A stretch of 64,000 bases of DNA. Origin: Eledone cirrhosa (Eukaryota). Positions 4,535 to 56,075 of this stretch are shown here, piece by piece. The number at the start of each line of letters is the position of its first letter. The first letter of the stretch is position 1. The notes under the pieces are model-generated. The model had not been told where the DNA came from. It worked only from the letters and a program-made list of their open reading frames with translations, and did no database searches. The DNA lies in the NCBI GenBank assembly GCA_964016885.1, contig OZ024742.1:173600001-173664000 (forward strand). Reading direction: 5' to 3'. The translations under genes were made by a program, and so were the position numbers.

Positions 4535-4672
4535 TATTTAACGATCGTTTCTAGGATATATATGTGTTAGAATTGGCATGCATATTCAACAGATCTATGT
4601 ACAAAATTATACAAAATTATACAAACTATCAAGATTAAATATACATACCAACACATATATACGCCGTCTTCA
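4535..4672 (-). ncRNA. Hammerhead ribozyme with ~115-nt stem II, truncated at C3
   Basis: TGAAGA..tatatatgtgttgg...ctaacacatatata..GAAA cgatcg TT. Confidence 0.6.
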
Positions 4673-4755
4673 TATATATATATATATATATATATATATA
4701 TATATATATATATATATATATATATATATATATATATATATATATATATATATAT

Positions 4756-4848
4756 GAGATTCTACAGGACTAGAACTGTTTCATTCATTAGAAATCATCA
4801 GAGTACCTTACTTACTGTGGTTACCTCCGATTCAATCCGGAATAACGT
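4756..4848. mobile_element. Family A solo-pLTR fragment (inverted HHR plus tail)
   Basis: Two pieces match 5623-5826 in opposite orientations; flanked by (TA)n. Confidence 0.75.
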
Positions 4849-5002
4849 ATATATATATATATTTATATATATATATATATATATATATATATATATATAT
4901 ATATATATATATATATATATATATATATGTATATATATGTATGTATATATATATATATATATATATATATATATATATATATATATATATATATATATAT
5001 AT

Positions 5003-5195
5003 AACGAAGTAGCTGTGGTAAGGAACCAGATGGACCATAACGCACCAGAGTACTCAATACTTAGGGTAGTAGAGTGGGTAATAGGAGCAAGTATGACCCC
5101 AACGGCAGAGCTGAAGCGGTTTCGATAGTTATTTCAGTCCAGAAATACCCGTCTAAACGGCTTGAGCTCTGCCGTCGGGGTCATACTTTCTCCCA
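5003..5195. mobile_element. Family B fold-back element with hammerhead 3' half
   Basis: Homologous to 14898-15063; GAAA cggc-ttgagctct-gccg TC consensus. Confidence 0.7.
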
Positions 5196-5371
5196 TATAT
5201 ATATATATATATATATATATATATATAAAATATATGTTGGTTGTATACCAACACCTCAGTATGCACATTGGAGCACTGGACGAAGTGCGCAGGTTGGTTT
5301 GGTTAATCCGGAGTAATGTAAAATGAACTAAAATAAATAAGTCAAATGTTTAAAATTTGGCTTCGTTTATT

Positions 5372-5426
5372 ACTGCTATATATATTTCGGTGACAGCTAT
5401 CTTTGGCTGTGACCTCTTCAGGCAGT
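5372..5426 (-). ncRNA. Type I hammerhead ribozyme (family C pLTR)
   Basis: actgc CTGAAGA ggtcacagc..gctgtcacc GAAA tatata TA gcagt. Confidence 0.85.
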
Positions 5427-5622
5427 CCGAATTAGTGTGGTAGAGACAAGTACACATGTTTTTAAGGTGTTTAACTTTGTCAATACTCTGATATGCCCAG
5501 TTCCTGGTTGGGTTGTTATTTCACTGAGGAACTGGAATCATATAATATGTATATATATATAAATGTATATATATGTATATATATATCTATATGTATATAT
5601 ATATATATATATATATATATAT

Positions 5623-5826
5623 ACGTTATTCCGGGTTGAATCGGAGGTAACCGCAGTAAGTAAGGTACTCAATACATAGCAGAGTATAACAGTTTTAATA
5701 TAGATGAGATTCTACAGGACTAGAACTGTTTCATTCATTAGAAATCATCAGGAATCTCTGATTCCTGATGATTTCTAATGAATGAAACAGTTCTAGTCCT
5801 GTAGAATCTCATCTATATTAAAACTT
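5623..5826. mobile_element. Family A fold-back element with two opposed hammerheads (5708-5756 -, 5760-5808 +)
   Basis: Perfect ~65-bp inverted repeat; gattc CTGATGA tttctaatgaat GAAA cag-ttctagtc-ctg TA gaatc. Confidence 0.85.
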
Positions 5827-6189
5827 ATATATATATATATATATATATATATATATATATATATACATATATATATAGAGAGAGAGGGGGGGGAGAAAAC
5901 TATAAAGTATGAGAGAGAAAGGTAAGTAGACCGAGTGAACGTGAACAGGAAGTGTATAGAGATGATTGAATCAATTACAATTATTTGGTTTAAAAGTTTA
6001 CATTAAAATGAGGATATTGAGAATATGTCAGGGAACATAAGGTGTAACTGACGTATTTCTGATTACTTTCGAATAATATACAACCAATGGATAATATCCC
6101 TGTTCAATAACTAGAAGACACTATATTACACACATCTTGTATTATTACAATTACATATCAGTATATATTACATGCTTGCATAATTGTGG

Positions 6190-52253: not shown

Positions 52254-53389
52254 ATATATATATATATATATATATATATATATATATATATATATATATA
52301 TATATAATAAGGAAAAGCGAAGTAGATTCAGATGTTCAAGTCCTTTAATAATAATGCTGTGATATATATCTCAATGGCAACAGTGGCCACACTGTTCCGT
52401 GCGCCAGTGCCGCGACATCGTCAGACAGCTTGTTACAAAATAAGGTTTTGTTTCCGAGGCCATCCAAATTGAATCGACATGGGAACGGACGAACTGTGTG
52501 CTCTTGGGTTCTTCGTCCGTTCCCTTGTGAGTACCAATTCACCCCCACCGGTCTGTGCAGGCGCAGGTCCGAAGGAAATTGACTATTAGCTACAGCAGAT
52601 TTCAACGAAATTCGCCTAATCAGTTCTCCCTCACAACCAAACAATGACCCATTTAGACCTGTTATATATAGCTTACTGCTAACCACCCCGTCAATGGCAG
52701 TCAGCCGAAAGGCAATGGGGATGGGAGAGTGCTTGAATTGAATTGCATCAATGTTTAACCTAAGAAGTTAGCTCCAATTAGTTGAGCGCTCTATGATGTA
52801 ACCGATATAGTGGAGAAGAGAGGAACCAGCCACCAGTTACACCCGGAAATTCCCTCTACCATGGGGAGGGAAATCCCTGATTCTGGCCCGACATAAAAAT
52901 AACTTCCGGCAGGATAAATTGGATGAAACAAAAACAACAATAAACCCCTATTTTCCTGCAACAAATTGCATTTGAATAGAAGCCCCCTCAATTCAATCTA
53001 TATATGGACAAATTGACAATCATATTAATCATGTATCCCCTATCTCATTTTGCATATATGTACTGTATGTGTTTTTTGCATTTATTGGATATTTTTTGTG
53101 TGTTTTTTTTTTTGTACTTCATATCTGTGTTTTTCTTTGTTTTGTTCCATGTGATAGAAATTCTAGCTATGTACCCGCCTAACTACTACCTTTCATAATT
53201 TACCCTCCGTTCTACTGTACGGTACCATCGTTCAGTATGTAGATAATATATCTGTAACATTAATACCCCTTTCAAAACTTCTTACTTAAACATCTCCCTA
53301 TGTAGTAGATAGTATAGGTGCATATATTTTTTACTCACTTCAATCTATATTTTTTTACTCACCTCAATCTAGATTCTCACTTGTAAATC

Positions 53390-53537
53390 TTTTTAATTTT
53401 TAATTTTTAATTTTTAATTTTTAATTTTTAATTTTTAATTTTTAATTTTTAATTTTTAATTTTTAATTTTTAATTTTTAATTTTTAATTTTTAATTTTTA
53501 ATTTTTAATTTTTAATTTTTAATTTTTAATTTTTAAT
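53390..53537. repeat. (TTTTTAA)n heptamer array
   Basis: About 21 perfect units. Confidence 0.95.
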
Positions 53538-53977
53538 ATTTGATTTCTAATTTCCAACTCTCATTCATAACTTCCACTGTGAAACCATGATACTTAGAAT
53601 TAAGTATATTTTATCTTAGAGGTTGATGGTCAATTATACTGTCCATGCTTAATGAGGGGTAGTATTGAGACCTATTGATACTCACACTCTCCCATCCCCA
53701 TTGGCTTTCGGCTTACTGCCACTGATATAGCAGTAAGCTATATATACCAGGCCTGAATGGGTCATTGTTTGGTTGAGAAGGGGAACTGATTAATCGAATT
53801 TCGTTGAAATCTGCGGTAGCTAATGGTCAACATCCTTCGGACCTGCGGCTGCTAAGACCGGTGGGGGTGAATTGGTACTCACAAGGGAACGGACGAAGAA
53901 CCCAAGAGCACACACTTCGTCCGTTCCTATGTTGATTCAATTTGGATTGCCTCGGAAACATAACCTTATTATGTAAC

Positions 53978-54054
53978 AAGCTGTCTGACGATGTGGCGGC
54001 AGTGGCGCACGGAACATGTGGCCACTGTCGCCATTGAAATATATATCACAGCTT
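53978..54054 (+). ncRNA. Canonical type I hammerhead ribozyme
   Basis: aagctgt CTGACGA tg tggcggcagtggc..gccactgtcgcca tt GAAA tatata TC acagctt. Confidence 0.9.
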
Positions 54055-54399
54055 TATTATTAAAGGATTTGAACATCTGAAACTACTTCGCTTTTCCTTA
54101 TTCGATATTTACTCCGTCACTCCTATGTGGATTAAGTACGTTGAGTGCTGGAATTGAATTGCATCAATGTTTACCCTAAGTTTATATATATATATATATA
54201 TATATATATATATATATATATATATATATATATATATATATATATATATATATATATATATATATATATATATATATATATAGATAGATAGATATATATA
54301 TAGATAGATAGATAGATAGATAGATAGATAGATAGATAGATAGATAGATAGATAGATAGATAGATATACACGGGTGTGTATGATTGTGTATAGAAGATT

Positions 54400-54760
54400 A
54401 TATTAATAAGAGAAATTCCAACTTTGTCTGATTTACTCGTTTTATTTACAATCCTTTAAAATTTATAATGGTATTATAATGAAATAGTATGATAGAATAT
54501 TTAATTCTAAGTGTTAATTGAACAAGTACTTTCATGCTTTCGCAATCTTTACGTTTATAATATGTGGTGACAGTCTTGCAAACTTGACTGACACCACATA
54601 TTATGAACCTGAAGATTGCGAAAGCATGAAAGTACTTGTTCAATTAACACTTAGAATTAAATATTCTATCATACTATTTCATTATAATACCATTATAAAT
54701 GTTAAAGGATTGTAAATAAAACGAGTAAATCAGTCAAACTTGGAATTCCTCTTATTAATA
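54400..54760. mobile_element. Family N fold-back element; minimal HHR at 54604-54642 (+)
   Basis: ~175-bp arms; tgaac CTGAAGA ttgc-gaaa-gcat GAAA gtac TT gttca. Confidence 0.85.
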
Positions 54761-54802
54761 TATATATATATATATATATATATATATATATATATATATA
54801 TA

Positions 54803-54917
54803 GGTAGAGGGTCTTAGCAGCAACAAGTTACGGCCCGTTATGATCTGAGTTCAAATCCCGCCGAGGTTAACTTTGCCTTTCATCCTTACGGGGTCGATAT
54901 AATGAAGTACCAGTAAT
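54803..54917 (+). mobile_element. SINE fragment
   Basis: Match to the 13341 family. Confidence 0.75.
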
Positions 54918-55026
54918 ATATATACATATATATATATATATACATCCATACATACACACACACACACACACACACACACATATATATATATATATATATA
55001 TATATATATATATATATATATATATA

Positions 55027-56075
55027 TTGATAAGCATCAATAAATGAGAAACAGGGCCTTGTCAGCTTTATCTCTCCAGTTTCGTGAAAATTAATGTAAG
55101 TGAGTCTGTCACTACTCTAAAACAATAGCATAAGGTCTTCAAAATGGTTTCAATTAAGCATACAGTGTATTGCAAAATACATTATATATACATTCATATA
55201 TGTATATTATATATATATATATATATATATATATATATATATATATATATATATATATATATATATATATATATATATATATATATATATATATATATAT
55301 ATATATATATATATATATATATATATAATATACATATATGAATGTATATATAATGTATTTTGCAATACACTGTATGCTTAATTGAAACCATTTTGAAGAC
55401 CTTATGCTATTGTTTTAGAGTAGTGACAGACTCACTTACTTTAATTTTCACGAAACTGGAGAGATAAAGCTGACAAGGCCCTGTTTCTCATTTATTGATG
55501 CTTATCAAAGCCAACTACTCCTCCTGTTTGCTGTTTGCTGAAATCATGGATGGTTGGTTCTTATAGAATTCTAGTAAATAATCAGGAACTGATTATGCAG
55601 AGCCGGTCAAGCAGAAATTGAAAATTAGAATCGGTGCTCTAAAATAGCTATATATATATGAATGTATATACAGTGTATTTTGGAATACACTGTATGCATA
55701 ATTAAAAGCATGTTGAAGACCTTATGCTATTGTTTTAGAGTAGTGATAGACTCACTTACTTTAATTTTCAGCAAACAGGGGAGATAAAGCTGACAAGGCC
55801 CTGTTTCGTTTCGCATTTATTGATGCTTATCAAAGCCAACTACTCCTCCTGTTTGCTGAAATCATGGATGTTTGGTTCTTATAGAATTCTCGTAAATAAT
55901 CAGAGACTGATTATGCAGAGCGGTTGGTGATAATTAAAGTAAGTGAGTCTGTCACTACTCTAAAACAATAGCATAATGTCTTCAAAATGCTTTTAATTAA
56001 GCATACGGTGTATTGCAAAATACACTATATATACATTCATATATCTATAACTATTTCAGAGCACCAATTCTAATA
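55027..56075. mobile_element. Family D complex array: HHRs at 55027-55067 (+), 55468-55512 (-) and 55788-55837 (-); 320-bp period; two inversions
   Basis: ggct TTGATAA gcat-caataa-atgc GAAA cag-ggcc-ttg TC agct consensus. Confidence 0.85.

What the first reader, a model, noticed from the sequence alone, without database searches (positions are those of the whole stretch)
4672..55033. 5' ends and inversion axes cluster in the 5' half of the ribozyme, upstream of the cleavage site
Seen: symmetry axes or truncation points fall at stem I (5757, 47545), at loop II (11464, 14944, ~5135), within the core (1837, 4672, 4801, 50402, 55027), or 20-35 nt upstream (54580, 39268). Inference: reverse transcription crossed the scissile bond, so the template was uncleaved or re-ligated (circular) RNA. 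The enzyme then stalled or folded back on the ribozyme's own stems, producing the palindromes.
Basis: partly seen in the sequence, partly recalled or inferred. Interest (0 to 1): 0.75.

Follow-up and report, generated by a model that had tools for sequence, protein, structure and literature searches.

The report
Penelope copies end at RNA start
These short mirror-image jumping-gene copies do cross their ribozyme uncut, but their ends pile up at the likely start of the element's RNA rather than at the ribozyme, and the two mirror halves were likely written by two enzyme runs on one RNA, which would explain how this class makes its inverted ends.

Summary
All 12 coordinates are ends or joints of Penelope-like element (PLE) copies carrying type I hammerhead motifs (nine families); four need correcting. 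Genome-wide the pile-up is real but does not follow the ribozyme. Relative to core C3 it lies at -6 (A, E), +46 (C, loop II), -44 (F), -66 (G) and -122 (H); tandem retrozyme-like family B has none. Four of seven walls have a TATA-like box 29-33 nt upstream, and an extra G is enriched there, as expected for a capped RNA start. In a joint model the wall raises the ending rate 18-fold, the ribozyme 1.2-fold (0.92-1.55). 361 of 445 arms cross the scissile bond; copies stopping at the wall imply linear uncut RNA, and only B looks circular. 169 of 184 palindromes pair one tail-bearing with one tail-less arm, and the tail-less arm often reaches further 5', which argues against fold-back and for twin priming. 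The architecture and the uncut template are published; this scan reached the same reading on other DNA of this genome. No RNA start data were available.

The parts
1838..1929 (+). Family H tail-less arm, 5' end in the hammerhead core (+5); head-to-head with a long minus-strand ORF arm
   Evidence: (L330)
864..1837 (-). Family H long arm: ORF fragment with CxCX5C linker and GIY-YIG-type motif; runs on past the window start
4401..4672 (-). Family I arm beginning at core U4 after (TA)n; long domain II; 3' limit not determined
4757..4846 (.). Family A pair with non-overlapping arms: tail-less arm 0..+53 (minus), tail arm +81..+126 (plus)
4998..5193 (.). Family C pair; plus arm starts at the family wall in loop II (5136)
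5207..5543 (-).
5625..5826 (.). Family A pair, both arms at the wall (stem I 5' strand); extra G before the minus arm
7153..7551 (.). Family B pair; neither 5' end lies in the ribozyme
11332..11531 (.). Family D pair; joint at about 11479-11482 on stem II; 11464 is loop II of the minus arm
14899..15073 (.). Family C pair, arms at +52 and +58
34778..39268 (-). Full-length family G element: 1268-codon frame (35285-39091) between two pLTRs; tail-less 3' end; 5' end at -37
39268..41425 (+). Inverted 2.1-kb family G arm, begins inside the ORF, ends with the tail
47385..47873 (.). Family E pair at the wall (stem I / core start)
50132..50901 (.). G-like arm (minus, 50132-50401) joined to a 1.55-unit family B arm starting at U4 (50402-50901)
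54336..54758 (.). Family F pair, arms at -23 and -33, trimmed back from the wall at -44
55027..56074 (.). Family B pair (55328-55926 minus, 55924-56074 plus) plus a near-identical mirror copy at 55027-55207

Best explanation
The 5' ends pile up at a fixed family-specific wall that is likely the capped transcription start in the PLE pseudo-LTR, and each palindrome is likely two cDNAs primed from the two target DNA ends at the two internal start sites of one uncut RNA and then joined tip to tip. Shown in sequence: the walls and their offsets, promoter-type motifs before them, excess G at them, crossing of the scissile bond, one tail plus one tail-less arm per pair, shared subfamily alleles between arms. 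Inferred: that the wall is the RNA start; that priming in the first pLTR gives a short run-off cDNA while priming in a downstream pLTR gives copies that pass the wall; that one RNA served both arms; that the tips are trimmed and joined by end-joining, sometimes through ribozyme stems. The ribozyme is near the joints because it is encoded near the start site. Family B (321-nt tandem unit, no wall) likely uses the same twin priming on a circular RNA.
For: Walls at -6 (A, E), +46 (C), -44 (F), -66 (G), -122 (H); ending rate in the 12-nt wall window 2.5-11% per nt against 0.07-1.5% elsewhere; Poisson model on 378 ends: wall 18.2-fold, ribozyme 1.19-fold. The 80 evenly spaced 10-kb tiles give the same walls for A, C, E and, on few arms, H. 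TATA-like word 29-33 nt before the wall in A (3 of 3 long copies), C (5 of 5), E (4 of 5), F (5 of 5); background 438 of 17,730 positions, P(4 of 7 families) = 1e-5. G has ETS-, NRF1- and YY1-like words and H a CCAAT box (motif names recalled). Extra G: 14 of 29 exact-wall ends vs 39 of 167 off-wall ends, p = 0.011; after a TA run, G rather than C precedes the wall at 56 of 85 C loci and 42 of 77 F loci (hand counts on the first 100 listed rows) against context backgrounds of 0.25-0.43 and 0.15-0.22. A full-length F element begins at the wall (L323). Pairs: 169 of 184 are tail plus tail-less; 86 of 89 in D-H where either arm can be the anchor. The tail-less arm reaches 25 nt or more further 5' in 35 pairs, the tail arm in 12 (p = 0.001); 11 of 169 pairs do not overlap at all; in the window's G insertion the tail-less arm is 2.4 kb longer. 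Arms agree at 628 of 671 subfamily-diagnostic sites; off-wall tips are within 10 nt of each other in 24 of 67 pairs, 9.8 expected. PMC11167929: a PLE protein cuts and extends both strands, starts at two internal RNA sites that bound the tail, and prefers unprocessed RNA. PMC3846280: TATA and Inr-like motifs in a pLTR.
Against: No RNA 5'-end data: the run search gave contigs only. Walls were chosen from the same ends that were then tested, so the 18-fold figure is inflated; the TATA spacing, extra G and tile subset are the independent checks. D has no clear wall or TATA box, and its ribozyme zone has the highest off-wall rate (1.46% per nt); without D the ribozyme term is 1.36 (1.01-1.84, p = 0.04). 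Five of the 14 extra Gs are in family A, where snap-back on stem I would also give G; raw G:C at F is not above 1:1 (p = 0.49), and an added G shows a template end, not necessarily a cap. Allele sharing could come from gene conversion or from two RNAs of one locus. Asymmetric deletion at a palindrome centre could mimic non-nested arms. PMC11167929 saw no difference in start site between strands in vitro. Ends come from local alignments to 1-3 real copies per family and are good to a few nt at best; 240 of the loci were the copies most like the window's own.
Confidence: 0.72

Rival explanations
1. One reading: the enzyme stalls or the cDNA snaps back on hammerhead stems, and the hairpin is extended on itself; endonuclease resolution at a fixed site would give the one-sided tail.
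For: Ribozyme alone gives a 2.05-fold rate before the wall is added; A, C, E walls lie in the ribozyme's 5' half; 11 of 21 off-wall joints in the ribozyme overlap by 4 nt or more; arms share alleles; D has many ends on stem II. PMC8557442 suggests the tail comes from endonuclease resolution.
Against: F, G, H walls are 37-115 nt upstream of stem I and their ribozyme zone (0.38% per nt) is no higher than the stretch between it and the wall (0.51); B shows no rise; a copy of the first cDNA cannot reach further 5' than its template, yet the tail-less arm does so in 55 of 169 pairs and 11 pairs do not overlap.
Confidence: 0.1
2. Self-priming on an antisense transcript from a bidirectional pLTR promoter makes the head-to-head palindromes (proposed in PMC3846280).
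For: Published reading of the same architecture; explains shared alleles and small junction palindromes.
Against: Does not predict a wall 30 nt behind a sense TATA box with an extra G on the sense strand, nor non-overlapping arms; PMC11167929 shows sense RNA is copied.
Confidence: 0.06
3. The wall is the RNA start, but the two arms come from two RNA molecules, or by sequential events at one site, and were later made alike by conversion.
For: One joint in the window is between different families (50402); 43 of 671 diagnostic sites differ between arms; B arms have very unequal lengths.
Against: Cross-family joints are rare (two reciprocal rows of one locus and one TA-separated case among the unpaired arms screened); near-strict tail/tail-less pairing and matched off-wall tips need coordination.
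Confidence: 0.09
4. The walls are inherited boundaries of short non-autonomous master copies, not ends made afresh.
For: Short copies dominate several families.
Against: Upstream flanks differ from copy to copy and ends scatter by several nt downstream of the wall; TATA-based short copies lack their promoter; a full-length F element starts at the same wall.
Confidence: 0.03

Closest known systems
EN+ Penelope-like element insertions with inverted 5'-truncated copy and one-sided tail (PMC8557442, passages and section 11; PMC3846280, passages)
   Same: Head-to-head arms, pLTR with hammerhead, tail on one arm, (TA)n targets, pLTR overlapping the ORF start, TATA and Inr-like motifs in the pLTR.
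   Different: Tails here are 28-160 nt rather than 30-40; in the passages read neither paper maps 5' ends to the start site or counts tail/tail-less pairing; PMC3846280 explains the palindromes by antisense self-priming.
Anolis Poseidon PAc in vitro mechanism (PMC11167929, parts 1-2 of 4 read: abstract, main text, start of methods)
   Same: Both strands extended, two internal start sites bounding the tail, uncut RNA as template.
   Different: It reports no strand difference in start site and does not address inverted products or where cDNA ends.
Non-LTR retrozymes (bioRxiv 10.64898/2026.07.22.740005, parts 1-3 of 5 read; PMC7229834, search listing only)
   Same: Family B: 321-nt tandem unit, one type I hammerhead per unit, no ORF, copies up to three units.
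   Different: B arms also come as tail/tail-less inverted pairs (34 of 48 rows, some pairs listed twice); its circular RNA is not shown here.
Circular-template proposal for PLEs (PMC4209133, passages)
   Same: More-than-unit copies; weak monomeric hammerheads with short helix III.
   Different: A circle gives no wall upstream of the cut; most short copies of A, C, E, F stop at one.
L1 twin priming (recalled; not read here)
   Same: Second target strand primes internally on the RNA and gives an inversion; 11 pairs here have the same non-overlapping layout.
   Different: Here both start sites are fixed, most arms overlap fully, and both can run to the RNA start.

Membership tests
EN+ Penelope-like elements | Single ORF with RT and C-terminal GIY-YIG endonuclease | tested here: met
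   G frame of 1268 codons shows YVDD and YIGET motifs by eye; F copies show YLDD and YVGQT. Pfam scored no family for the G, H or 9869-10522 frames and GIY-YIG only for another window fragment (1 of 4).
EN+ Penelope-like elements | pLTRs in direct and inverted arrangement, optional tail | tested here: met
EN+ Penelope-like elements | RT phylogeny with PLEs | not tested
   No tree was built.
Hydra clade | CxCX5C linker and (TA)n targeting (PMC8557442 section 11) | tested here: met
   Met for C and H. F and G instead have a CX4CxxC linker, so they are not Hydra by this feature. A, B, D, E, I not assigned.
Type I hammerhead ribozyme | Core CUGANGA...GAAA...UH with helices I-III | tested here: met
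   Read off long copies: canonical in A, D, F, G, H, I; U3-A8 in B and C; C at position 4 in E. Helices I and II recovered by folding in 4 of 6 window copies, none with z below -2. Rfam gave no hammerhead match at E up to 1; my strict pattern found 2.
Type I hammerhead ribozyme | Self-cleavage | not testable with these tools
   Needs an assay; only 11 of 445 arms end at the predicted cut.
Non-LTR retrozyme (family B) | Tandem non-coding unit with one type I hammerhead per unit | tested here: met
   27 of 68 arms exceed one unit
Non-LTR retrozyme (family B) | Circular RNA intermediate | tested here: inconclusive
   No wall and a roughly constant ending rate of 0.3-0.6% per nt out to 1 kb fit a circle; unit-identity test did not discriminate; no RNA data.
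RNA polymerase II start site | Mapped capped 5' end at the wall | not testable with these tools
   Only contigs were offered; TATA spacing and extra G are indirect.

The most novel reading that the evidence does not exclude
A PLE dimer primes both ends of one DNA break at two fixed sites on a single uncut, capped RNA, the rear enzyme displacing or halting behind the front one, so genomic palindromes record transcription starts to the nucleotide; and in family C the promoter is built into the ribozyme itself (TATA-like box in stem II, start in loop II), so the transcript opens with half a hammerhead that only the downstream pLTR could complete.
Probability: 0.4. Interest if true: 0.72.

Novelty: new member of a known kind. 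Interest (0 to 1): 0.48.

Why it matters
How PLEs build their tandem and inverted insertions, and what their hammerheads do, is named as open in PMC8557442. These counts give a model that can be tested in the existing in vitro system: inverted ends come from coordinated two-site priming, cDNA ends report the RNA start, and the ribozyme is mostly uncut when autonomous elements are copied, while a retrozyme-like family in the same genome behaves as if circular. It also offers a way to predict PLE promoters from DNA alone. The elements and their layout are known; the contribution is mechanistic evidence. Paper searches (open-licence PMC and bioRxiv only) listed no paper that, in the parts read, maps PLE ends to start sites or applies twin priming to PLEs; supplements were not read and subscription papers are not covered.

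Tried and rejected
Rfam scan: no hammerhead hit, only microsatellite-driven miRNA matches. Strict hammerhead pattern: 2 hits, too strict. Whole-unit search for B favours long copies, so its 30 loci were left out of rate estimates; so were the 20 long stretches. First rate table dropped some long A copies and counted anchor sequence as at risk; replaced, which also drops G arms under 88% identity. Genome search for family I found nothing; it was identified from 430-odd loci already held and not counted. B within-locus versus between-locus identity: 0.945 vs 0.939, and the nearest-neighbour column was spoilt by short alignments: inconclusive. Sequencing runs: contigs only, one RNA run at 0.07 share; no reads were laid, so expression is untested. 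Cleaved RNA as the main template: rejected (11 of 445; some of the 7 D cases are stem I joints). Pure detection bias: rejected, since queries were anchored downstream of the ribozyme and tiles agree. Other window palindromes (axes near 10857, 14380, 22981, 26587) were viewed but not analysed.
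Full report
Setting. The window is AT-microsatellite-rich DNA from a 3.0-Gb animal genome; earlier scan notes call it an octopus. Self-comparison and ORF listing show many pieces of Penelope-like elements, including a full-length element at 34778-39268 with an inverted 2.1-kb copy. Positions are given relative to core C3 = 0.

Data. For B, A, C, D, E, F, G and H I searched the genome with a 66-79-nt query lying downstream of the ribozyme, so that selection does not depend on the 5' end, and took 30 loci each. I added 80 evenly spaced 10-kb tiles. 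Of 1007 candidate matches 950 aligned; after filters for score, identity, locus edge, known 3' end and duplicates, 445 arms remained for A and C-H and 68 for B (of 117).

Observation. The coordinates are real ends or joints, with four corrections given in the observation check. Ends are strongly clustered, but at a family-specific wall with a sharp upstream edge: -6 in A and E, +46 in C, -44 in F (18 ends at one base), -66 in G, -122 in H; D is diffuse. Only in A, C and E is the wall inside the ribozyme's 5' half. In F, G and H the ending rate is 0.15% per nt downstream, 0.38 in the ribozyme, 0.51 between ribozyme and wall, 4.9 at the wall and 0.21 beyond it: a slope towards the wall, not a peak at the ribozyme. 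A Poisson model gives 2.05-fold for the ribozyme alone, but 1.19-fold (0.92-1.55) once the wall is included, against 18-fold for the wall; leaving D out gives 1.36 (1.01-1.84). The walls were picked from these data, so their size is overstated.

What the wall is. A TATA-like word starts 29-33 nt before it in A, C, E and F, against a background of 2.5%. CCAAT, CACCC, CArG-like and CRE-like words lie further up; G has ETS- and NRF1-like words before and a YY1-like word just after; H has CCAAT at about -52 (names recalled). Every wall base is an A after a pyrimidine. An untemplated G precedes exact-wall ends twice as often as other ends (14 of 29 vs 39 of 167). Genome-wide patterns for wall ends after a TA run gave 463 rows for C and 157 for F; among the first 100 rows of each, G stood before the wall at 56 of 85 and 42 of 77 distinct loci (six tandem F hits counted once), above the matched background from the tiles. 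Copying of the cap as an extra G is recalled from other reverse transcriptases. A full-length F element starts at the wall (L323). I infer that the wall is the capped RNA start. In C the TATA-like word is the 5' strand of stem II and the start is in loop II.

Template state. 361 of 445 arms cross the scissile bond and 11 end at it. In a circle made by two cleavages the ribozyme's 5' half is continuous with the ORF end, so no wall would form; copies that stop at the wall therefore point to linear uncut RNA (inference). This agrees with PMC11167929 and with the weak monomer activity in PMC4209133. Copies that pass the wall (4 of 30 in A up to 25 of 35 in H) could come from a downstream pLTR of a tandem transcript or from a circle. 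Family B differs: a 321-nt tandem unit, ends spread round the unit, 6 ends in 2460 nt at risk in the ribozyme against 62 in 15,332 elsewhere, 10 of 68 arms crossing the bond twice and 3 three times. That fits a circular template but does not prove it.

How the palindromes form. Each family has two fixed 3' ends 28-160 nt apart, which in G lie in the first codons of the ORF, like the two start sites bounding the tail in PMC11167929. 169 of 184 pairs join one of each; 86 of 89 where both kinds can be detected alone. Fold-back predicts the second arm nested in the first. Instead the tail-less arm reaches further 5' more often than the reverse (35 vs 12 at 25 nt or more), and 11 pairs do not overlap, one of them at 4757-4846. 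Arms match at 628 of 671 subfamily sites and their off-wall tips are correlated. The simplest reading is that both target ends prime on one RNA at the two sites, run towards its 5' end, and are joined with small trims, fillers or overlaps. Central deletion of a fold-back hairpin, or conversion between arms, cannot be excluded by sequence alone.

Comparison and verdict. The layout, the tail, pLTR promoter motifs and the uncut template are in print (PMC8557442, PMC3846280, PMC11167929); the circle idea is in PMC4209133. My reading was noted before I consulted earlier scan notes; several notes on other DNA of this genome say the same and are not independent support. The finding is a real pattern with the wrong cause assigned: known elements, with useful and testable evidence on an open mechanism.

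Noticed in passing
family C, e.g. L105, L111 (long copies); window 14941-15073: U3-A8 core variant with a 33-nt loop II; the TATA-like box lies in stem II and the likely start in loop II, so the transcript would begin with half a ribozyme.
   Followed up: partly
family B (window 50402, 55833) and family E (window 47550): Core variants: U3-A8 in B, C at position 4 in E; family I (4672) has a domain II of about 125 nt and a 9-bp stem I.
   Followed up: partly
window 55027-55508: Tail-to-tail mirror of 241 nt per arm centred on a TA run, 99-100% identical although the unit is old; a recent DNA-level duplication, conversion or assembly artefact.
   Followed up: partly
window 50132-50901: Head-to-head joint between a G-like PLE arm and a family B arm with no TA spacer; may hint at which element mobilises B.
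   Followed up: partly
L193 (family F): Short repeated copies of the wall sequence as filler between the arms, suggesting repeated slippage or templated insertion at the joint.
   Followed up: no
window 5014-5070, 5627-5675, 15020-15062: Families A and C share a short motif just before their tail ends; possibly a protein recognition site.
   Followed up: no
window 22845-23118: Palindrome containing a tRNA-like match (Rfam tRNA 38.6 bits at 22910-22981), perhaps an inverted SINE pair.
   Followed up: no
window 13331-14137, 26364-26820, 28951-29134, 49203-49722: An abundant ~190-nt repeat in tandem and inverted arrangements, SINE-like.
   Followed up: no
window 37954-38465: Asn/Thr/His-rich low-complexity insert inside the family G ORF, recalling the N-rich inserts in PMC3846280.
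   Followed up: no
window 61699-63613 (minus): ORFs resembling a LINE ORF1 with a zinc knuckle and an endonuclease start (by eye).
   Followed up: no
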